Shown here in pieces: positions 3,051 to 61,860 of a stretch of DNA of 64,000 bases (the first letter of the stretch is position 1; each line of letters begins with the position of its first letter). A program made the translations under genes and the position numbers. The stretch spans positions 11,844,001 through 11,908,000 of the forward strand of contig CM052816.1 of the NCBI GenBank assembly GCA_028534125.1. The letters run 5' to 3'. The stretch comes from Lama glama. Its lineage: Eukaryota. The notes under the pieces were generated by a model, which searched no databases, was not told the origin of the DNA, and saw only the letters and a list, made by a program, of their open reading frames with translations.

Positions 3051-3192
3051 GGAGGAGAGAGTATAGCTCAGTGGTAGAGTGCAGGCCTAGCATGCATGAG
3101 ATCCTGGGTTCAATCCCCAGTACCTCCATTAAAAAAGTAGATAAATAAATAAACCTAATTACTTCCTCCACCAAAACAAAACATTTTTTTTA
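3051..3192 (+). mobile_element. tRNA-Ala-derived SINE (camelid Vic-type)
   Basis: tRNA-Ala(AGC)-like head GTATAGCTCAGTGGTAGAGTGC...CCTGGGTTCAATCCCCAGTACCTCCA with A box 3064-3074 and B box 3107-3117. The AT-rich body (aaacctaattac) is shared with the copy at 18557. Degenerate TSD aaaaggggaatgt / aaaagaggaaatgt. Confidence 0.9.
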
Positions 3193-10162: not shown

Positions 10163-11033
10163 TTTTTTTAACATTTTTTATTGATTTATAATCCTTTTAC
10201 CATGTTGTGTCAAATTCCAGTGTTCAGCACAATTTTTCAGTCATTCATGGACATATACACACTCATTGTCACACTTTTTTCTCTGTGATTTATCATAACA
10301 TTTTGTGTATATTTCCCTGTGCTATACAGTGTAANNNNNNNNNNNNNNNNNNNNNNNNNNNNNNNNNNNNNNNNNNNNNNNNNNNNNNNNNNNNNNNNNN
10401 NNNNNNNNNNNNNNNNNNNNNNNNNNNNNNNNNNNNNNNNNNNNNNNNNNNNNNNNNNNNNNNNNNNNNNNNNNNNNNNNNNNNNNNNNNNNNNNNNNNN
10501 NNNNNNNNNNNNNNNNNNNNNNNNNNNNNNNNNNNNNNNNNNNNNNNNNNNNNNNNNNNNNNNNNNNNNNNNNNNNNNNNNNNNNNNNNNNNNNNNNNNN
10601 NNNNNNNNNNNNNNNNNNNNNNNNNNNNNNNNNNNNNNNNNNNNNNNNNNNNNNNNNNNNNNNNNNNNNNNNNNNNNNNNNNNNNNNNNNNNNNNNNNNN
10701 NNNNNNNNNNNNNNNNNNNNNNNNNNNNNNNNNNNNNNNNNNNNNNNNNNNNNNNNNNNNNNNNNNNNNNNNNNNNNNNNNNNNNNNNNNNNNNNNNNNN
10801 NNNNNNNNNNNNNNNNNNNNNNNNNNNNNNNNNNAATACCATGCTGTCTTGATGACTGTAGCTCTATAGTATTGTCTGAAGTCTGGGAGAGTTATTCCTC
10901 CAGCCTCTTTCTTTCTCTTCAGTAATGCTTTAGCAATTCTAGGTCTTTGATGGTTCCATATAAATTTTATTATGATTTGTTCTAGTTCTGTGAAATATGT
11001 CCTGGGTAATTGGATAGGGATTGCATTAAATCT
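10163..11033 (-). mobile_element. Young 5'-truncated L1 spanning an assembly gap, with 14-bp TSD
   Basis: Perfect TSD agctacagagagtt at 10149-10162 and 11034-11047, and a poly(T) tail at the left end. The minus strand of 10836-11033 reads open as [66 protein letters not shown], a recognisable L1 ORF2p segment. Confidence 0.95.
10335..10834. other. Assembly gap (500 N)
   Basis: Run of exactly 500 N. Confidence 1.
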
Positions 11034-18179: not shown

Positions 18180-19480
18180 TCTTTACTTCATAGTCAAAGT
18201 CAAATGAATTTCTGCTGGATAATTAAAGATTGAAATGTAAAAACAAAACGAAACAATGCTAGGAGAAAATATTGGTGAATATTTATATGAATTTGAAGCA
18301 ACAGCATAGGCAGAAACCGCAAATGAAGCTTGATCGTTTTGATCAGGTAAAATAATCAATTCTTACTTGGAAGAACCCAATACAAAATTTAAAAGAAAAC
18401 TCTAAACGAGGAATGAGATTTGGAACTCACACAACATAGGTTAATGCTCATTATGAATAAAGAACACCAAAAAAATCAGTAAAAGATGATGAATATCCCA
18501 AGAAGAAAAAATGGGAGAAGGACACAAAGAGGCACTTCACTAAAGGAGTGCTCAATGAGGGGAGGGTAACAGCTCACGTGGTAGAGTGCATGCTTAGAAT
18601 GCATGAGGTCCTGGGTTCAATCTCTAGTACCTCCTCTAAAAATAAGTAAACCTAATTACCTATCCCCCACCAAAATGAAATAATTAAATAATACAATTTA
18701 AAAAAATAAATAAAAAATTTTAAAAAAGAAGTGCTCAATAACATGAAAACATATTAAATCTTAGTAAATAAATCATAGGTCAGAGAGCAAGGAGGTAGTA
18801 TTTACAGCCATTAAATGGACGTAGTTTTGAGAACATCATAATGCCCATTGTTGACAGGGTGTCACTCTCACGTGTTACAGGTAGGGATGTGCATGGGTAA
18901 ACTGTTGTGGGTTATGTATTCAATATCTTAAAATCTTATTTGCCTTTTGATCTGTTAATTATACATTTAAGAAATATTTGGGGACTTATGCAAAGATTTA
19001 TATGCAAGAATATCTACAAAAGCTTAATTTATAACATTAAAAATTAGAAGCAGCTTAACTGTCCCCAAAAAGGGGATTTGTTTAAAAATTATAATACACT
19101 AGAATGTATTAGAATCTTAAAGTTATGATATATTGTAATGATATAATGGAATCATATGCCACTATTAAGTGTGATAATACAGAAATATAATTATTGATAT
19201 AGAAATATATTTATGATCTTTTACTTCATGAAAGGACTGTCTTATGTATTTACATTTATATTTATCTGGTGACATGTGAAGTGAAAAATTCTCAAAGGTG
19301 TAATATACCAAATACATGAAAATACTGAAGGTAACTATCTCTGGATAGTGGGGTGACAGGTGGTTCTTTAATTATAAAAGAAGGAAGTTGCCTACACATA
19401 CACTCTAACTTTTTTCCAAGACTGAGTATGTGTAAGGATGTACCAAACAAAGAAATAATAAAGTTTAAAAAACCAAAAGA
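18180..19480 (+). mobile_element. Old L1 (L1ME-like) ORF2 end and 3' UTR, interrupted by a SINE
   Basis: aaagattgaaatgtaaaa...ctaggagaaaatattggtgaatatt...aaatgggagaaggacacaaagaggcacttcac...ataccaaatacatgaa. Confidence 0.75.
18557..18724 (+). mobile_element. tRNA-Ala-derived SINE (camelid Vic-type)
   Basis: ggggagggtaacagctcacgtggtagagtgcatgcttag...gtcctgggttcaatc; 15-bp TSD aaaggagtgctcaat (18542-18556) / aaagaagtgctcaat (18725-18739). Confidence 0.92.
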
Positions 19481-23511: not shown

Positions 23512-23656
23512 TTTTGAGGAGGGGGGCACAGAGGAGGTCACTAGTTTGTTTGTTTGTTTGTTTATTTAATTTATTTTTAATGGAGGTGATGGGGATTGAA
23601 CCCAGGATCTTGTGTATGCTAACCCTGCACTCTACCCTTGAGCTATACCCTCCCCC
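23512..23656 (-). mobile_element. tRNA-Ala-derived SINE (camelid Vic-type)
   Basis: Reverse complement reads gggggagggtatagctcaagggtagagtgc...tcctgggttcaatccccatcacctccattaaaaataaa; no TSD recognised. Confidence 0.9.
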
Positions 23657-33199: not shown

Positions 33200-33420
33200 G
33201 TAATTATAAACACTTACTAAATGCTCGCTATGTGCAGTACTCACAGGTACTCTTCTGAATGTTTTATATGTATGCTTTTAATTCTCACAATAAGCCTAAA
33301 GGCAAGAAGCTATTATAATCTCTGTATCTTCCCGATGAGTACACTGAGGCAAAGGAAGGCTGGGTCATCTATCCAAGGCTACATGAACAGGAGTGGCTGA
33401 GCTGTGATTTGAACTGTTTG
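33200..33420 (-). mobile_element. MIR SINE
   Basis: acttactaaatgctcgctatgtgc...ttaattctcacaataa...gatgagtacactgaggc...gtggctgagctgtgatttgaac. Confidence 0.75.
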
Positions 33421-48959: not shown

Positions 48960-49880
48960 CTGTTGCAAACATAAAAAATTATGAAAGAACTGAATGGCTT
49001 ATATTATATATGGAAAGTAACCAAGTATTAAAAAGAGTAGCCTAAATCCACACGAACATAGCTAACTGGTTTTTGACAAAGGTGCAATGGCAATTTAATT
49101 GAGAAAAGATTGTCATTTCAACAAACAGTGTTGGAGAAATTAGGTGTCCACATGTGAAATATTGAACCTAGACACAGCCCTTATACCTTCCATAACAATT
49201 AGCTCAAAATAGATCATATCTGTAAATGTAAAATGAAAAACTTAGAAACTTCTAGAAAAACACACAGGAGAAAATCAAGGTTACACTGGGTTTGGTGATG
49301 AGTTTTTAGATATACCACCAGAAACATGATCCTTTAAGGAAACAAAAATATAAAGTTGGACTATATCAGTTTACTAGGACTGCCACAGCAAAGTACCCCA
49401 AGCCAAGTGTCTTAAAATGACGGGAATTTAGTATCTCACATTTCTGGAGGTTAGAAGTTCAAAATTAAGGTGTTGGCAGAAGCATGCTGCTTCTGAAGGG
49501 TCTAGGGAAGCATGCTTCCTTGCCTCGGTCCTAGGAGCTCCTGGCACCCCTCAGTGTTTCAGCTTGTAGATGTTTTACTCCATTCTCGGCCTCCATCATC
49601 ACAAGGCCTTCTTCACCATGTGTGTGTTTAAATTTCTCTTTTCTCTCATATAGGTACCAGTCATTGTATTTAGAGCCCACCCTAATCCAGTATGTCCTCA
49701 TCTCGACTTGATTAGGTGTAATGAAACCCTATTTCTAAACAGGGTCACATTGACCAGTACTAGGGGTTAGGACTCGGGTGTATCTTTTGGGAGAACAAAG
49801 TTCAACCCACAACATGTACTACATGAAACATTTTAAGATTCTGTTCTGTGAAAGACACTGTTAAGAGAATGAAAACACAA
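48960..49880 (+). mobile_element. Old L1M ORF2 fragment split by MLT1C
   Basis: ttttgacaaaggtgcaatggcaatt...aacctagacacagcccttatacctt...aagttggac, then after the LTR ttctgttctgtgaaagacactgttaagagaatgaaa. Confidence 0.85.
49362..49814 (-). mobile_element. MaLR solo LTR (MLT1C-like), full length, 5-bp TSD
   Basis: tatatcagtttactaggactgcc...ttctggaggttagaagttcaaaattaaggtgttggcag...ccctaatccagtatg...ttcaacccacaaca; TSD tggac (49357-49361) / tgtac (49815-49819). Confidence 0.9.
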
Positions 49881-49924: not shown

Positions 49925-50125
49925 CATAAATAAGTATAGATAAACAACAAGGTCCTACTGTATAGCACAGGGAACTATATTCATTCAATATCTTGTAATA
50001 GCCTATAATGGAAAAGAATGTGAAAAAGAATATATATATATCTGAATCACTATGCTGTACACCAGAGATTAACTCAACATTGTAAACTGACTATAATTCA
50101 ATTTAAGAAAAAAATGAAAAAAATG
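49925..50125 (+). mobile_element. Artiodactyl-type L1 3' end
   Basis: tagataaacaacaaggtcctactgtatagcacagggaactatatt...ctgaatcactatgctgtacaccag...ttgtaaactgactata followed by an A-rich tail. Confidence 0.9.
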
Positions 50126-50405: not shown

Positions 50406-51052
50406 AGTAATTATAGTCAGTTTACAATGCTGTGTCAATTTCTGGTGTACAGCACAATGCTTCAGTCATACATACATATATTCTTTTTCACCATAAGTTA
50501 TAAGATACTGAATATAGTTCCTTGTGCTATACAGCATGAACTAGTTGTTCATCTATTCTATATATATCAGTTAGTGTCTGCAAATCTTTAACTCCCAATT
50601 TATCCCCTCCTACCCCCTTTCCCCCTGGGAACCACAAGTTTGTTCTCTATGTCTGAGAGTCTGTTTCTGTTTTGCAAATAAGTTTGTTTGTCTTTTTTTT
50701 ATTGTTGTTAGATTTTAGTGATACCGTATGGTACTTTTCTTTCTCTTTCTGGCTTATTTCATTTAGAATGACAGTCTCCAGGGACATCCATGTTACTGCA
50801 AATGGCATTATTTTATTCTTTTTTATGGCTGAGTAGTATTCAATAGTATAATATAAAACAACTTCTTTATTCCATTGTATAAATATAAAACAACTTCTTT
50901 ATCCAGTCATCTGTCAACGGACATGTAGGTTGTTTCCATGTCTTGGCTATTGTAAATAGTGATGCTGTGAACATTGGGGTGCATGTATCTTTTAGAATTA
51001 AGGTTCCCTCTGGATATATGCCCAGGAGTGGGATTGTTGGGTCATATGGTAA
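50406..51052 (-). mobile_element. Young camelid/artiodactyl-type L1 (ORF2 C-terminus and 3' UTR)
   Basis: Minus strand encodes LPYDPTIPLLGIYPEGTLILKDTCTPMFTASLFTIAKTWKQPTCPLTDDWIKK (L1 ORF2p C-terminus, within ORF 50867..51181), followed by the 3' UTR. Confidence 0.95.
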
Positions 51053-51590
51053 GATCACTGTCATTTGAAGGGTGGTGCAACACCACTTCCTTCTTGGCTG
51101 TAACACTGAGCCTGAAAAGATGTTTGGTTCAGAGGAGAAACCTGGTGCTGGAGGTAGTCTCTGACTCCTTCTACAGTGCAAGCATCCAGGGAGAGATGAA
51201 TATTGGACTTAATTTCTTTTTATTTCAGGGTCTCTAGGTAATAACTATTTTCATTTAAAATGACGTTCTTTTTATTAAATAGTTGTATCATGTTTGAAAA
51301 CATTTCACTTACAGAAAGTGATTTTTTAAAATATTCAGTGGGTCAGAGTACTTCATTTTATGTAAAATGTCTAGAATTAATCTCTTGCCTAGTTTTGACC
51401 CAATGCACAAGTCAAGGTTATTTCTGCTGTTTGCGGAGATGCAAGGGAAATTGTGATGGGGAACCCTGTAGGGGAGTGGTTCTGTTGCTGATGCTGGCTT
51501 TATATGCTGGCCTTATAGTGCCCGTTTCAATAAGTGTCTGCCCCAGCCCCATCCTTGAACTCCCAAATCCCAAATTATAGTCCCATTTAG

Positions 51591-51730
51591 ACTTAGAACA
51601 ATACAGAACAATCTCCAGGACGAGAGGATCTTTTATTTATGTTGTACAACAATGTTACATAATCCAGCAAGTAGTTCACCTTCATTCTTTATGATGGGTA
51701 TATAGGGCAATACATTTCTCAACGATTGGC
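51591..51730 (+). repeat. Left arm of ~140-bp inverted repeat
   Basis: ~84% identical to the reverse complement of 53255-53392 by manual alignment. Confidence 0.95.
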
Positions 51731-51884
51731 ACTTTGTAGTCGGTTCCTATGGTTATGGCATCTTCTAATTCTGCTCAGACCTATGGTGTGAATGACAGGA
51801 AATGCTGTCTCTGTTCCACCATCCAGTTCCTCGAGACAGGGAAGAATGTCAGAAGTAGATGCAGATGAGCACAATCAGTAAGGC

Positions 51885-52085
51885 CACAAGTTTTGACTGT
51901 ACACACCCAGATGTGAGTCCTGTTTCTCCTCTTATCAATTTCATGTCCCTTGGAAAGTGTTCTGAACCCCAGTTTTCTTAAGACCTACTCCACAGAGGAG
52001 GAGTTGTGAGGATAAAATTGGACCAGTACAACTGACATACTTCACACAGTGCCAAGCATATGGTAGGTTTCAATCAAAATTAGTT
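51885..52085 (+). mobile_element. MIR SINE
   Basis: cacccagatgtgagtcctg...ttggaaagtgttctgaaccccagtttt...gttgtgaggataaaa...cacagtgccaagcatatggtagg. Confidence 0.7.
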
Positions 52086-52324
52086 TTTTCTTTAATTAAT
52101 AGCAGACATACTGAATGCATTCTTTACATCTTGAAATAAATTCTTCTGAGGATTGATTCACAAAACCCTTTTGGAATTTTGAAAAGTTTAGATCAAAAAT
52201 CTCTATTCTTAGTGCAGAAAACTCCCTGATATAGACAGTAAAATCAGCAGGGTCCAAACCAACCACTTTCGTATTTATTTGGTGGCAGCCTGGGTCAGAG
52301 TTGCGGGTAGAAAAAATAGCAAGA

Positions 52325-52450
52325 AGCTGAGAGTTGAAGATTTGAGTTTCAGGGTAAATCCTACCATTGCTTCATTGCATTATTTTAGGCAAGTGTGGAT
52401 TTGTTTCCTAAGCAGGGAAAAATGGGGTTCTTCCTCCCACCCCTAGGGTT
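52325..52450 (+). mobile_element. MIR fragment
   Basis: gagttgaagatttgagtttc...ttaggcaagt...gtttcctaagcagggaaaaatgggg. Confidence 0.5.
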
Positions 52451-52794
52451 TCATTAGACTTCACCAGATAGAGACTCCTCCTTTAAATAAGAACAAACAA
52501 AAACGTTCTTGAATTTGCCACTATCTCTTCTTGTCTCCTTATCCATATTATTCCACATCTGTTGTTCAGCCATGATTGACACACTTTTACGTACCGGACA
52601 ATTACAGCGAACATTCTTCCCAATCTCCTGTTGTTGTATTAGCTTGTTCTTTCTCAGTACAGATCATGTCCCTAAATATCTGAAACTAATTAGCTAATTC
52701 CCTATTGTACCTAGATTGTTAACAACACACAAAGCAAAACGAGACTACTTTCCATTCATGTTGCAGAACCTAACTTTATATTCATGAGGATGTA

Positions 52795-53040
52795 GTGATA
52801 ATTTTTTAGCATCAACATTTGTTGAGTACATGCTATGTATCAGACAGTGTGCTAAGTACTTTATGTGCATTAATCCTCAGAATGAACACATGAAGAAGAT
52901 ATCATTATGGTCTTCATTTTATAGATGGACAACTGGTTAGAGAGATCAGTTACTTTCCTAAATTCAAACATTTCAAAAAATGGTGAACATATTTTAAACC
53001 AAGAAGTCTTTGTCTGTGGCACTCTTATTTTAACTACTTG
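52795..53040 (-). mobile_element. MIR SINE
   Basis: aacatttgttgagtacatgctatgtatcagacagtgtgctaagtactttatgtgcattaatcctca...cattttatagatggacaactgg. Confidence 0.8.
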
Positions 53041-53254
53041 GTTTCTGGAGTCTCTGGAAATTAGGAATGACAGAAAAACCACCATCTCTCCCCTGAAAAT
53101 TAAACAAAAAAATAAAATAAAAACAGAAGGGGGTCTTTATATTAAGAACTTACTGAATGCAGTGATAGTTTTTAGCTGAACATACATAATTAATTTCCTC
53201 TCAAATCAATTTAACATCTAAATAATGCAGCACGAGCTAATGGGCTCTCAGCTG

Positions 53255-53392
53255 GCCAAACATTAAGAGATATATTGCCCCATATACTCATCATAAAGAA
53301 TGAAGTGAACAACTTGCCTGGTTACATAACATTGTTGTACAACATACATAAAAGATTCTCTCGTTTGGCAATTGTTCTGTACTTTTCTAAGT
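53255..53392 (-). repeat. Right arm of ~140-bp inverted repeat
   Basis: Reverse complement of 51591-51730, including a perfect 20-bp core (53327-53346 vs 51638-51657). Confidence 0.95.
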
Positions 53393-54569
53393 TTTGCTAA
53401 ATCAGACTTCCTTCTAATCTCACAGATGCCAGCAGTTTAAAAGCAGTTCAAGAATCCTAATTTATATCTGGTGTTTAGCTTTGAATAAAATGGGCCAGCA
53501 AATGCGGGGGGGCGGGGGGGAGCATAACTTAAGGATGGAATTTATTTCCAGCCTTCTAAACACAGATTTCCAATAAACATCCACTTAGAGAACCATTTCA
53601 TTAAGCTAACTGCAGCCGAAAACAAGTTCCCTGATGTTTCTTTGAGCATTTTTATTTTGTAAAATGAATCATTACTTTCTGTGTTTTGGCTTGACAGTCT
53701 TTCCCCCCCAGTTGTGTAATTTTTGCATTTGTCACTCACATTGCTTGTATTTCCAGAGAATTGTTCCAAGACATTTATGCTTTGGAATGAGACGCTTAAC
53801 TTGGTGACATGAGTTTGGAGAAGCCCCCAAACCACTAAGTTGCATTACTTTGTCCTTTGAAAAACTGGTTGAGGGTCTTGACTTCCTCATTTCAATTAAA
53901 GCTTAGTAGCCCCTTAAGGCCGACTCTGGGGTGACTGTAATGAACTGGTAATAAACAGGATGGATAGCTGTGGCCCTAGGAGGAAGCAGGGGAAATGACA
54001 ACCAGGGCTTGTAAAGCTTTCTTTCATCTGTGATTTGGTCAATAATCCAGATATTTGCAAACCCATTCTTAACCACTTCACCCTCAAGTGATGAAACTTT
54101 ACTGATGGAGAACTAATGGAATGTGAAGAAAAACTGAAGCAAGATGTTGGAGGGAAAATTTTCAGTATACAAACTCCACATAGGCAAGTAAGATGATGGA
54201 AAACTCAAGAGTCAGTTAATCCTAACAGAATTTGCCTTTGGTGTCTTTGGTTAGGTAGTCAAACTGAGAGAAGAGTCTATTCAGATTACTAAAAGATGGT
54301 TATATTTCATGCCTGCTAGTAAGCATAGGAGATGCAGTCAAGAAGGGCATAATTTATCTTGTGGAGAAACTCTCAGTGTGGTAGCTACATATTCATTCTA
54401 CCATTCAAAGGATCAGATAATGATAATTAGAATAAGCAGACCCTTTCTTGAACATTTACTTTATGCTGATAGGGCGTTAAGATAATGAAAGTAAATTCAA
54501 TCGCATCAACCTCATGACAGCCGTAAGAATGAGTAGTATTATTAATAGCAATACCTAACATTGTGGACT

Positions 54570-55069
54570 NNNNNNNNNNNNNNNNNNNNNNNNNNNNNNN
54601 NNNNNNNNNNNNNNNNNNNNNNNNNNNNNNNNNNNNNNNNNNNNNNNNNNNNNNNNNNNNNNNNNNNNNNNNNNNNNNNNNNNNNNNNNNNNNNNNNNNN
54701 NNNNNNNNNNNNNNNNNNNNNNNNNNNNNNNNNNNNNNNNNNNNNNNNNNNNNNNNNNNNNNNNNNNNNNNNNNNNNNNNNNNNNNNNNNNNNNNNNNNN
54801 NNNNNNNNNNNNNNNNNNNNNNNNNNNNNNNNNNNNNNNNNNNNNNNNNNNNNNNNNNNNNNNNNNNNNNNNNNNNNNNNNNNNNNNNNNNNNNNNNNNN
54901 NNNNNNNNNNNNNNNNNNNNNNNNNNNNNNNNNNNNNNNNNNNNNNNNNNNNNNNNNNNNNNNNNNNNNNNNNNNNNNNNNNNNNNNNNNNNNNNNNNNN
55001 NNNNNNNNNNNNNNNNNNNNNNNNNNNNNNNNNNNNNNNNNNNNNNNNNNNNNNNNNNNNNNNNNNNNN
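54570..55069. other. Assembly gap (500 N)
   Basis: Run of exactly 500 N. Confidence 1.
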
Positions 55070-55555: not shown

Positions 55556-56724
55556 TAAATTGCAAAAAAAAAAAAATACAGGAGAATGTTCCAGGCTATT
55601 TTTTTTTCATGAATCAAGCTTCATCTCTTTATTAAGAGGATCTGCAAGCAAGCCAACATCTAGAAAACACATCTCTGTTCTTCTTGCTCCCATCCAGACA
55701 GAAATAGTAGATTGAAAGACAAACATTTCCTGACTGCCAGTACACACAGACACACACAACACATACGTAAATAAGCCATCAGACAGACCTGCATGATGGT
55801 TCCGTTAATGCCTGCCATACATCACTCCTGTGTTTAAATCTACAATCGGGAGTGTACTTCTTTTTAACAACACGAGCAAAGAAATTATTTCCAGTTGCAT
55901 TTTTACAAATTGCTCTCAATTGTGACATTTATCTTCCATCCCAATCAAGTGTAATTTACCAGAAAGACTGCATAATGTTTCTGTATTTAAAATATGTGAG
56001 GTTTTTGTAACAACCCCCTCACACCCCATCGCTACTAGGGATGTTCTTGTAACACACCTCCCCTCCCCCACCCCCAATTTCCCTACTAGGTAAGGTTTGG
56101 AGTTGGCATCGTTTAAACAAACTCGTCAAGATATAATGGCTCCCTCAAACCTTATCTACTGCAAGAATAAATGGCCAATTGCTAAGAAGCTTCACTGGTT
56201 CAGTTCACAGTGAATCAGTTGAAATAGCTTGGAAGTTGGAGGGCCAATTTGATTGTAGGTACTATAATGAAAAATGTGTGTTGGATGAGCAGGATGCAGG
56301 ATGAGCCCATCACTCCTTTAGTGACTAAGACACAAGAGGGCAGTAACATGAGGTCTGTTACTGTCATCTGATGGGACCTTGGACCTCTTACCCAGCAGTT
56401 GCCAAACCCTGGGCTATGAATCTGTGGAAATCCATGATGAAATTTTCACCACACTGTGGCACAAAAAAAAAAAAATCAATACTGGAACATGAGTTTTTTT
56501 TTTTCCAAAGCTAAATTTATTCCATTTAAAAGGACTGCCATTTAATTCAAGATTATGGCCTTCCAGTTCTTTGGTTTGAAATATTTTTTCTTGGATAAAA
56601 GAGTGGCAATACTCAATGAAAGCTTTGAAAATAAATTTAACTGAGAAATTAAAAATTGGCAGCCCCATATTTCTTTAATTTTTATTGTTCTGGCACCAAG
56701 CACAGTTCTGTCCAATAATGATCA

Positions 56725-56900
56725 TGTTAATGTTAGGCACTAGCATCTGGGAAATGCTATCATATGCCAAGCACTGTGCTAAATGGTGTGTATGCTTAAT
56801 CCTTACCTCAACACTGCTGCATGGGTGCTACTATTATCTCCATGTTGCAGGTAAGGAAACTGAACCCTATGGGCTTAAGGACCTTGCCTAAGGTCACAAA
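56725..56900 (-). mobile_element. MIR SINE
   Basis: atgccaagcactgtgctaaatg...ttaatccttac...ggaaactga...ttgcctaaggtcaca. Confidence 0.8.
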
Positions 56901-57510
56901 ACACAGTCACAAAATGAACTGTGTGGCCTTGTTCTTCAGAACTTCACCACATCTGGCATTAAGAATGTGAATCTGCTAGATAATGATGGTGACATTCTTT
57001 TGAGCAACTTGGCAAGAGAAACCTGAGAATGATAGCTGGTAGATACGGAAATGAGAATGGAAAAGTGCATTTAGAAGTCTCCTATTCCAGGAAGTTTTAA
57101 ACTATGACAGTGCACAGACTGACAGGATCAGAAAGGTTTGTAGACACCGAGAACTCCTTTTTCATATTACGGGTGAAAGGAAAATGTTCCTGGTAACTGT
57201 CATGGCTAGTTTGGGTAGCAGACTCCTGTGCACTTTCTGCTGTGTGACACGGCTGCAGTGCTTCTGTTCTGGGTGAGAACAGGGCCGTCTCTGCTCACAT
57301 TTCCCCCATGGTTCAGAAGAATTACTCTTGGATAAATTTCCTCAACCCTAGGAGATGCCCTGATCTCTTATTTTCCTTCCCACTCTAGGTCAAATATCTC
57401 AGACAGGCAGGAGTGTAAAGCATCACAGAGGCATTCATCAATCCCACTATTGATAAGAGTAAGACAGTGTCACTTTAGGTGTGGCTAAAGTAAACAGAAG
57501 ATAGTCCAAA

Positions 57511-58060
57511 GGTCGCAGATGGATTGTAAGATTGCCTCAAGGACTCCACCTCCTGAAGGTCACACCCTTGCGTGGACCCCTCCCCATGAGTGATGGTGGT
57601 ACTTGTGACTTGTTTCCCACCAACTGAATATGGCAAGGGTGATGGAAGGTCACTTCTGTGATTACATTACTTAGGCTTGTAACACTTGTCTTGCTCGAAC
57701 TTTCTTTCCCTTGCTGGCTTTTAAGAAGCAAACTGCCATATTTTGAACTGCCTATGGAGAGGACCACATGGTGAGGAACTGGGGGTGGCCTCTGGTCAAC
57801 AGCTAGCAAGAAACTGAGGCCCTCATTCCCAAAGCCTGCAAAGAGTGAAATTCTTCCAGGGGCTGCGTGAGCTTGGAAGTGGACCTTTCCAACTCTAATG
57901 GAACTACATCCCTGGCTGACACTGCAGAGGACCCAGCTCTGCCTGGTCTCCTGACCCCTAGAAACTATAAGATAGTAAGTGTGCCTTGGTTTTAGTTGCT
58001 ACATTTGTGGTAATGTTTTATTTATGTCTATATCTGTATCTATCAATAGATAACTAACAC
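57511..58060 (+). mobile_element. MaLR solo LTR (MLT1E/F-like), full length
   Basis: gaatatggcaagggtgatgga...gaagcaaactgccat...ggagaggaccacatggtgaggaactg...acagctagcaagaaactgaggccctca...caatagataactaacaca. Confidence 0.9.
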
Positions 58061-61044: not shown

Positions 61045-61290
61045 GACTATAGTGAATGATTATTATGTGCCAGGAACTGCTCGAAGTATCTTATGTGTAT
61101 TCATTCATTTAACTTGACTTATGAGGTGTGTATTATGATTAATCACAATATATAGTTAAGGAAACTTGAGCAGAGGGGCTAAGTAACTCCCTGAAAGTCA
61201 CAGTGTTGGGAAGTGGTGGAGCCAGGATTTAACCCACATAGTATTCTGAACCAGACCTCTAGTTCTTTACCATTGTACTCAGTAGCCTCT
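61045..61290 (-). mobile_element. MIR SINE, near full length
   Basis: tgaatgattattatgtgccaggaactg...aaggaaacttgag...aagtggtggagccaggatttaaccca. Confidence 0.85.
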
Positions 61291-61860
61291 CAAAATTATG
61301 AAACAGTGTCTCCTCATTTACCTGTTACCACACCAATATAGCCTGATTACACTGGCATGTGCCGCTCGCCGCTCTGCAGGTCCTTCACATCACCACATCA
61401 GTCACACTCTTATTTTCTTCAGATGGTCCCTTGCCCACTTACAGCTCCAGACTCACTGCACACCATTCTGTTTTCCTCTTTTAGTCTTGCTGACCTCACT
61501 CAACCCCTCTAACACATGGTGATCTCTTCTGCCTGCCCTTAGGAAATGAGCTGGTTCCTCATTCTGGGGTCACTGTGTCCCTTTCTTCATCTGGCTCATG
61601 CCTATATCCTCTTCTGGCATTGACTTAACATGCCTTTCCTCTGAACACTCTTCCCTGACTCCTATTTCACACTCTTCTTTGCAGCATGTTGCACAGGTAT
61701 GATTAATTACTAAATTATTTATTTACCTATAATCCTATATTAGATTACCATTGTCCCCATTAGTCCTCAAGGTCCCCATGAGGACATGGCCCTGTCTTCC
61801 TGTATCCCAGTGACTTGCATAGCACCCTGCACAAAGCAAGTGATTATTAATATTCAGGCA

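What the first reader, a model, noticed from the sequence alone, without database searches (positions are those of the whole stretch)
51591..53392. ~140-bp inverted duplication of apparently unique sequence around a 1.5-kb spacer
Seen in sequence: 51591-51730 aligns to the reverse complement of 53255-53392 with about 22 differences in 140 columns by manual alignment (~84%; ~14 transitions, 6 transversions, 2 gaps). It includes a perfect 20-mer TATGTTGTACAACAATGTTA (containing the 12-bp palindrome TGTTGTACAACA and a SOX-like AACAATG) and a perfect 16-mer TTCATTCTTTATGATG. It may extend ~12 bp outward across a 4-bp gap. I do not recognise the arms as any SINE, LINE, LTR or MER family. The 1524-bp spacer holds three MIR fragments that look more decayed than the arms are from each other. 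A CA/TG pair between the arms fits independent CpG decay from identical ancestors. Inference, three options: (a) the footprint of a small inversion or template switch that duplicated the breakpoints after the MIRs inserted; (b) old arms kept similar by gene conversion or by selection on a long-range RNA duplex (ADAR substrate, splicing or back-splicing bridge); (c) TIRs of a DNA transposon I do not recognise.
Basis: partly seen in the sequence, partly recalled or inferred. Interest (0 to 1): 0.7.

Follow-up and report, generated by a model that had tools for sequence, protein, structure and literature searches.

The report
Old inverted DNA-repair duplication scar
A 150-base stretch of non-coding DNA lies 1.5 kb from an 85%-identical backwards copy of itself; the pair is real, and is likely the ageing scar of a DNA-repair copying event of a kind catalogued by the hundreds in mammals, with no sign of function in the tests I could run.

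Summary
The arms have decayed like neutral DNA: K2P 0.16, similar to SINE pairs in the window; the perfect 20-mer is expected by chance (P 0.50); mismatches favour a duplex on neither strand; no target-site duplication stands out. Size, distance and divergence fit the repair-mediated duplications of Pace et al. 2009 (median 147 bp, about 1.2 kb apart, 824 in human, 202 in cow), which I take as the best explanation (0.6). An inversion footprint (0.15), two copies of an unrecognised repeat (0.1) and an older pair kept alike by selection or conversion (0.1) stay open, because genome-wide copy number, outgroup alignment and read-level data could not be obtained. No coding exon was found in the window. 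Ordinary: a new member of a known kind, interest 0.15.

The parts
51591..51730 (+). Left arm, core (140 bp)
   Evidence: 118 of 140 columns identical to the reverse complement of 53255-53392
51579..51590 (+). Outer 12-bp extension of the left arm, matching 53397-53408 across a 4-base gap
   Evidence: 10 of 12 identical in the local alignment; beyond it identity falls to 1-3 per 10
53255..53392 (-). Right arm, core (138 bp), inverted
53393..53408 (-). Outer extension of the right arm, including 4 bases absent from the left arm
51731..53254 (.). Spacer, 1524 bp, 37% GC; no inward extension of the arm homology
   Evidence: 2-5 matches per 10 along the inward diagonal; composition
51905..52106 (+). 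MIR-like fragment 1 (name, strand convention and left limit recalled or by eye)
   Evidence: 51955-52106 aligns 85 of 147 to 61167-61019, opposite strand to fragment 3; weak
52305..52460 (+). MIR-like fragment 2 (recalled resemblance, limits by eye)
   Evidence: 66 of 105 aligned to fragment 3 at a score within background; not shown independently
52805..53060 (-). MIR-like fragment 3, member of an old dispersed family in the window
   Evidence: aligns to 61053-61295, 56716-56916 and 33206-33346; K2P 0.55 to the first; family name recalled

Best explanation
The two arms are an inverted 140-152-bp pair 1.5 kb apart that likely arose once, when a broken DNA end was repaired by copying a nearby stretch from the opposite strand, and that has likely decayed without selection since. 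Steps: (shown) two copies, opposite strands, sharp ends, differences spread evenly, transitions 2.3 times transversions; (inferred) a germline double-strand break, a 3' end invading the neighbouring sequence 1.5 kb away, about 150 bases of synthesis and re-annealing (synthesis-dependent strand annealing), leaving the spacer in its old orientation; (inferred) an age of tens of millions of years, 37 My (21-57) at 2.2e-9 per site per year or 16 My (9-25) at 5e-9; (untested) which arm is the copy. A recalled resemblance of both flanks of the left arm to one L2 LINE fragment would make the left arm the inserted copy, but the window could not confirm it. If transcribed across, the arms are predicted to pair over about 135 bp, as any such duplication would.
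For: Size and spacing: Pace et al. 2009 (PMC2671141) found 824 human duplications within 5 kb, median 147 bp, mean distance 1.2 kb, diverging at about the neutral rate, and 202 in cow; the first of 15 parts of their Table S1 has rows such as 145 bp / 2530 bp apart / 15.3% and 143 bp / 1899 bp / 12.7%; one described case is in opposite orientation. Neutral-looking decay: K2P 0.164 (bootstrap 0.094-0.249), inside the range of three tRNA-SINE pairs of the window (0.135, 0.148, 0.204); longest perfect run expected by chance (P 0.50); G-U-compatible transitions 5 on + and 9 on - (binomial p 0.42); duplex energy matched or beaten by 0.90 (+) and 0.46 (-) of 400 random placements of the same differences. 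No poly(A/T) of 5 or more at the four ends, no target-site duplication above chance, no third copy in 64 kb. Not an assembly quirk: 13 runs other than the possible source, 6 studies, 4 organism labels, hold 0.93-0.96 of 290 sampled words; an absent arm would cap the share near 0.933, and 0.96 would then have P about 0.05.
Against: The defining evidence is missing: no empty site in an outgroup, no genome-wide copy number (no genome held), no microhomology or filler readable at the decayed junctions, and joining the flanks across either arm matched nothing in the window above background. Pace et al. do not tabulate orientation (Table S1 head row), so the share of inverted cases is unknown to me. 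The tests against selection use 20 substitutions and have little power; the - strand leans towards G-U pairs (9 of 14). Two RNA runs of one study hold 0.37-0.38 of the words, so part of the 2.75-kb stretch may be transcribed; which part and which strand is unknown and DNA carry-over is possible. An inversion footprint predicts the same arms.
Confidence: 0.6

Rival explanations
1. Footprint of a 1.5-kb micro-inversion: a staggered break, or a template switch of type 1-3-4-2, flipped the spacer and duplicated one breakpoint in inverted orientation; neutral afterwards.
For: Staggered breaks leave inverted duplications of non-repetitive DNA at 17 of 29 Drosophila inversions (PMC1885836, passages); type 1-3-4-2 makes an inverted repeat around an inverted spacer in 23% of short human-chimp events (PMC5453318, passages). 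It predicts the same neutral decay.
Against: Joins rebuilt for an inverted spacer matched nothing in the window above background (uninformative rather than negative). Short-range switches copy a median of 12 and at most 128 bases in the great-ape gold set (PMC7954356). A staggered break of 150 bases needs long unwinding, a difficulty the authors note.
Confidence: 0.15
2. Two independent insertions, in opposite orientation, of fragments of a repeat family that neither the reader nor I recognise (an L1 or LTR piece of this lineage).
For: Arm-to-arm distance (K2P 0.16) is the same as between SINE pairs (0.135-0.20) and an L1 3'-end-like pair (0.20) in the window; such inverted pairs are common here.
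Against: No third copy in 64 kb, whereas the SINE-, L1- and MIR-like families each have three or more; both copies end at the same two points; no poly(A) tail or target-site duplication at either arm; two copies 1.5 kb apart and none elsewhere in the window is unlikely for a dispersed family (inference). A 22-letter motif shared by both arms gave one hit in JGI metagenome contigs with unrelated flanks, a weak negative because I had no control for mammalian DNA in that collection.
Confidence: 0.1
3. An older duplication, shared with other mammals, whose arms are kept alike by gene conversion or by selection, either as a long-range RNA duplex (ADAR substrate, splicing bridge) or as a doubled regulatory element.
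For: Folding 51570-53415 pairs the arms on either strand (133 and 139 arm-to-arm pairs); duplex -160 to -174 kcal/mol, far beyond the -15 cut-off of PCCRs (PMC8052449). Two RNA runs of one study hold 0.37-0.38 of the words of the stretch. 9 of 14 transitions give G-U on the - strand.
Against: Any 85%-identical inverted copy folds this way. No homogenised tract (differences per 20 columns 2,5,1,5,2,2,5; run of 20 has P 0.50), no significant G-U bias (p 0.42), energy no better than random placement. No Rfam match on the arms. No Pfam family in 288 ORFs scanned across the window, so no coding exon to regulate was found nearby; short exons would be missed. The human list of Pace et al. has no mammal-wide entry near the inferred syntenic place among the chr5 rows of its <5 kb sheet; weak, since that list needs an interrupted transposon and the synteny is inferred.
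Confidence: 0.1
4. Terminal inverted repeats of an unknown non-autonomous DNA transposon that captured 1.5 kb of host DNA.
For: Geometry only: inverted ends around an internal segment. Camelid genomes hold 64-96 de novo MITE families (PMC8605555, passages).
Against: Longest direct repeat near the outer ends is 5-6 bp, reached or exceeded (6 or more) by 79 of 278 random position pairs; no Pfam hit in spacer ORFs; the spacer carries repeats about three times more diverged than the arms; DNA transposons make up about 2.5% of camelid genomes, mostly hAT-Charlie and Tigger, whose short TIRs this does not resemble (recalled).
Confidence: 0.03

Closest known systems
Repair-mediated duplications (RDs) by capture of proximal DNA, Pace, Sen, Batzer and Feschotte 2009, PMC2671141 (read: main text parts 1-5 of 8, passages, Table S1 part 1 of 15 and chr5 places 1-120 of 125)
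   Same: Length 140-152 bp against median 147; 1524 bp apart against a mean of 1.2 kb; no poly(A/T); divergence of about 15% as in their primate-wide rows; found in cow and dog too.
   Different: Their cases were defined by an interrupted transposon, a single donor in the genome and an empty site in relatives, none of which I could test. Camelids were not surveyed. Orientation is stated for one case only.
Doublets (Thomas et al. 2004; seen only as cited in PMC2671141)
   Same: Short local paired duplication of non-repeat DNA, ascribed to imperfect break repair.
   Different: Those surveys took near-identical copies under 100 bp; this pair is longer and decayed.
Four-point template-switch mutations (Loytynoja and Goldman 2017, PMC5453318; Walker et al. 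2021, PMC7954356; passages) and MMB-TIs (PMC8421209, passages)
   Same: Reverse-complement copy of a local template that creates an inverted repeat, with (1-3-4-2) or without (1-4-3-2) an inverted spacer.
   Different: Short range: copied piece median 12, maximum 128 bases; MMBSearch looks for templates within 100 bp. Here 140-152 bases and 1.5 kb.
Inversion-associated inverted duplications by staggered breaks (Ranz et al. 2007, PMC1885836; passages)
   Same: Non-repetitive sequence duplicated in inverted orientation at two ends of a segment.
   Different: Described for large Drosophila inversions; no inversion is shown here.
Intergenic inverted duplicates (Chen et al. 2017, PMC5398296; parts 1-3 of 6) and PCCRs (Kalmykova et al. 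2021, PMC8052449; abstract and section 6)
   Same: Complementary arms able to form an RNA duplex if transcribed; distance under the 10-kb PCCR limit.
   Different: Chen et al. cap the spacer at 1,000 nt; PCCRs are short (median 13 nt), conserved across vertebrates and inside protein-coding genes, none of which is shown here.

Membership tests
Repair-mediated duplication (Pace 2009) | Duplicated piece of 50 to about 620 bp | tested here: met
   140-152 bp; range
Repair-mediated duplication (Pace 2009) | Donor more than 50 bp and less than 5 kb from acceptor | tested here: met
   1524 bp
Repair-mediated duplication (Pace 2009) | No poly(A/T) tail of 5 or more at the ends | tested here: met
   none in 45 bases around each of the four ends
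Repair-mediated duplication (Pace 2009) | Only one other copy in the genome | not testable with these tools
   no genome held; no third copy in the 64-kb window
Repair-mediated duplication (Pace 2009) | Acceptor interrupts a pre-existing sequence (split transposon, or empty site in an outgroup) | tested here: inconclusive
   flanks joined across either arm matched no in-window repeat above background; no outgroup or repeat library; L2-like look of the left arm's flanks is recalled only
Repair-mediated duplication (Pace 2009) | Microhomology, filler or small deletion at the junctions | tested here: inconclusive
   ends are sharp, background identity beyond them; needs the empty site to read
Short-range template switch (four-point model) | Copied piece of tens of bases from within one replication fork | tested here: not met
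   140-152 bp at 1.5 kb against median 12, maximum 128
Inversion footprint (staggered break) | Spacer inverted relative to the ancestral order | not testable with these tools
   no outgroup; in-window joins uninformative
DNA transposon / MITE | Target-site duplication flanking the outer ends | tested here: not met
   5-6 bp at best, 6 or more in 79 of 278 random pairs; decay could have erased one
DNA transposon / MITE | Transposase remnant or family-specific internal sequence | tested here: not met
   0 Pfam hits in the ORFs scanned; spacer holds older MIR-like pieces
DNA transposon / MITE | Many dispersed copies | not testable with these tools
   none in the window
Selected long-range RNA duplex (PCCR, ADAR editing-complementary sequence) | Stable predicted pairing within 10 kb | tested here: met
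   -160 to -174 kcal/mol; 133-139 arm-to-arm pairs
Selected long-range RNA duplex (PCCR, ADAR editing-complementary sequence) | Differences biased towards pair-preserving changes on one strand | tested here: not met
   5 against 9, p 0.42; energy not beyond random placement; low power
Selected long-range RNA duplex (PCCR, ADAR editing-complementary sequence) | Both arms in one transcript of a gene | tested here: inconclusive
   two RNA runs of one study hold 0.37-0.38 of the words, part and strand unknown; no coding exon found
Selected long-range RNA duplex (PCCR, ADAR editing-complementary sequence) | Cross-species conservation, covariation, A-to-I editing | not testable with these tools
   no orthologue or read-level data obtained

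The most novel reading that the evidence does not exclude
The pair is much older than its 15% divergence suggests: a pan-mammalian, non-transposon 135-bp duplex spanning 1.5 kb in an unannotated transcript of a gene-poor region, held complementary by selection and serving as an editing substrate or RNA bridge (or a doubled developmental enhancer kept alike by arm-to-arm conversion).
Probability: 0.07. Interest if true: 0.55.

Novelty: new member of a known kind. Interest (0 to 1): 0.15.

Why it matters
As a neutral repair scar it matters little alone: Pace et al. report 0.20 such events per Mb of transposon DNA in cow and 0.62 in human. Its use is as one dated marker of germline break repair in a lineage that was not in their survey, and as a neutral control for claims that non-repeat inverted pairs are functional duplexes. 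It would matter more if both arms proved conserved across mammals with covariation, since long selected duplexes not built from transposons are rare.

Tried and rejected
Whole-genome search: no genome held. Read-level tests of structure, copy number, inversion polymorphism and editing: no data obtained, so these stay open. Plasmid BLASTN of the left arm: no match, not relevant to a mammal. Rfam: 2 hits in the window, both tRNA-like at 3057 and 18562, none on the arms. One arm alone has no local structure (z 0.92) and is no more self-palindromic than random 152-mers. Coding origin: the right arm has a 61-codon open frame, but 0 of 138 ORFs in 44-64 kb (137 of the 140 longest of 221 ORFs of 40 aa or more, three TA-repeat ORFs dropped, one arm ORF added) and 0 of the 150 longest of 831 ORFs in 1-44 kb hit Pfam; my splice-site scans gave no recognisable exon. 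Two weak extra inverted matches (51157-51323 and 52400-52529 against about 52950-53125) beat a Markov null but not real-sequence controls: scores of 140 or more occur in 5 mirror, 4 complement and 7 inverted of 580 tiles, 4 of those 7 at one L1 pair, and the matches fade with stricter gaps; rejected. Junction rebuilding: uninformative. Metagenome motif scan: 1 hit, flanks 5-9 of 20 identical, chance. Bacterial promoter scan of part of the spacer: irrelevant. Earlier notes: nothing near or alike. Literature: no held paper has PRELID2, KCTD16 and 'inverted' together; 'repair-mediated duplication' is in 9 papers, none on camelids by title; 'short paired duplications' with two further terms gave 0. 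These searches do not cover subscription journals.

Full report
Observation. It extends outward over a 4-base gap to 51579 and 53408 (BLASTN E 1.8e-35; local score 163, maximum 33 in 300 Markov shuffles). Beyond both ends identity drops to background. Self-BLAST and a more sensitive tile scan found no third copy in the window. The stretch 51150-53900 is held at 0.93-0.96 of 290 sampled words by 13 runs besides the possible source, from 6 studies and 4 organism labels. An absent arm would cap that share near 0.933; 0.96 would then have a chance of about 0.05. This is moderate support that both arms exist in other animals; an allele with the spacer flipped would not be seen this way.

Setting. 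The window is 38% GC with SINE-, L1- and MIR-like repeats (names recalled; tRNA-like heads by Rfam; pairs). No ORF scanned hit Pfam (0 of 138; 0 of 150) and my splice scans gave no recognisable exon; short exons would be missed. Earlier notes put the JAKMIP2 start exon 1.67 Mb and the PPP2R2B start 1.11 Mb before the window and IL3 9.84 Mb after it. With the human gene order, which I recall, that places the window near the far end of PRELID2 or in the gene-poor stretch towards KCTD16. This is inference.

How the arms have aged. K2P distance is 0.164 (bootstrap 0.094-0.249). Three tRNA-SINE pairs in the window give 0.135, 0.148 and 0.204, an L1 3'-end-like pair 0.196, an L1 ORF2-like pair 0.279, and the best MIR-like pair 0.55. 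At 2.2e-9 substitutions per site per year (the rate used in PMC2671141) the age is 37 My (21-57); at 5e-9 (2.5e-8 per generation, five years, PMC8605555) it is 16 My (9-25). Differences are evenly spread (2,5,1,5,2,2,5 per 20 columns). A perfect run of 20 or more arises in half of 20,000 shuffles. Five of 14 transitions are CpG-compatible. The 12-bp palindrome and SOX-like 7-mer occur in 54 and 24 of 895 tiles of the window.

RNA duplex. Folding 51570-53415 pairs the arms on either strand (133 and 139 arm-to-arm pairs), which any such duplication would do. Selection for pairing should favour G-U-compatible changes on the transcribed strand: 5 of 14 fall on +, 9 on - (p 0.42). Duplex energies of -159.7 (+) and -173.5 (-) kcal/mol are matched or beaten by 0.90 and 0.46 of 400 random placements of the same differences. 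These tests have little power, and the lean to the - strand is noted. Two RNA runs of one study hold 0.37-0.38 of the words; I could not see which part, which strand, or whether it is DNA. Editing, covariation and conservation are untested.

Transposon. The best direct repeat near the outer ends is 5-6 bp; 79 of 278 random position pairs reach 6 or more. No poly(A/T) lies at the ends. The spacer is old host DNA. A 22-letter motif common to both arms gave one hit in metagenome contigs, with unrelated flanks; without a control for mammalian DNA in that collection this says little. Genome-wide copy number remains the main open test.

Mechanism. The closest described class is the repair-mediated duplication of Pace et al. 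2009 (PMC2671141): 824 human cases within 5 kb, median 147 bp, mean distance 1.2 kb, no poly(A), ageing at about the neutral rate, 202 in cow. Rows of their Table S1 match this pair in size, distance and divergence. The proposed route is synthesis-dependent strand annealing: one end of a break invades a nearby sequence, copies it and returns. Copying from the opposite strand gives an inverted copy; they describe one such case but do not tabulate orientation. I put this at 0.6. An inversion footprint by staggered break or long template switch (PMC1885836, PMC5453318, passages) gives the same arms with a flipped spacer (0.15); the short-range class copies a median of 12 and at most 128 bases (PMC7954356). 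I tried to tell these apart by joining the flanks as each model predicts and searching the window for a repeat spanning the join; nothing rose above background. By eye, both flanks of the left arm resemble consecutive parts of an L2 LINE, which would make that arm the inserted copy; this is recalled and untested. The chr5 rows of the <5 kb sheet of the human list hold no mammal-wide entry near the inferred syntenic place, a weak negative. Two weaker inverted matches nearby did not exceed mirror and complement controls.

Earlier notes of this scan describe several like pairs in the same genome and others, read the same way. They are unchecked AI notes; I used them for position and as a sign that such pairs recur, not as support.

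Papers seen: PMC2671141 main text parts 1-5 of 8, passages, Table S1 part 1 of 15 and chr5 places 1-120 of 125 (the other three supplements and the rest of the table were not read); PMC5398296 parts 1-3 of 6; PMC8052449 abstract and section 6; passages of PMC1885836, PMC5453318, PMC7954356, PMC8421209, PMC8605555; Thomas et al. 2004 only as cited. The camelid repeat libraries in the supplements of PMC8605555 were not examined and may hold or exclude a matching family.

Verdict. A real, old, short inverted local duplication, most likely a neutral repair scar: new member of a known kind, interest 0.15. The boldest reading left, a conserved and selected non-transposon duplex or doubled enhancer, has probability about 0.07.

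Noticed in passing
window 3057-3128 (+), 18562-18635 (+), 23556-23655 (-): Three related tRNA-like elements, likely SINE heads; the first scores 47 bits on the Rfam tRNA model. Used only as an age yardstick.
   Followed up: partly
window 49926-50098 and 50409-50567: Two L1 3'-end-like pieces (name recalled) face each other at 76% identity around a 170-bp TA-rich array, 1 kb left of the finding; an ordinary inverted repeat pair from two insertions.
   Followed up: partly
window 50837-50902: 32-bp tandem duplication (91% matches) inside the L1-like piece next to the left arm.
   Followed up: no
window 51520-51578 and 51731-51785: Both flanks of the left arm resemble consecutive parts of an L2 LINE (recalled); if true the left arm is the inserted copy. 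In-window joins did not confirm it.
   Followed up: partly
window about 53180-53255: Homeodomain-like and E-box-like motifs (names recalled) cluster just inside the right arm; by eye only, no chance test. The right arm could be part of a regulatory element.
   Followed up: no
window 51955-52106 and 52805-53060: Two MIR-like pieces of the spacer lie in opposite orientation, nested inside the arms, but are too decayed to pair well (37 of 65 aligned).
   Followed up: yes
window 10335-10834 and 54570-55069: Two 500-base N gaps; the second lies 1.2 kb right of the right arm.
   Followed up: no
window about 49365-49815 and 57540-58000: MLT1-like LTR fragments by recalled resemblance, the first inside an older L1-like piece (sequence).
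   Followed up: no
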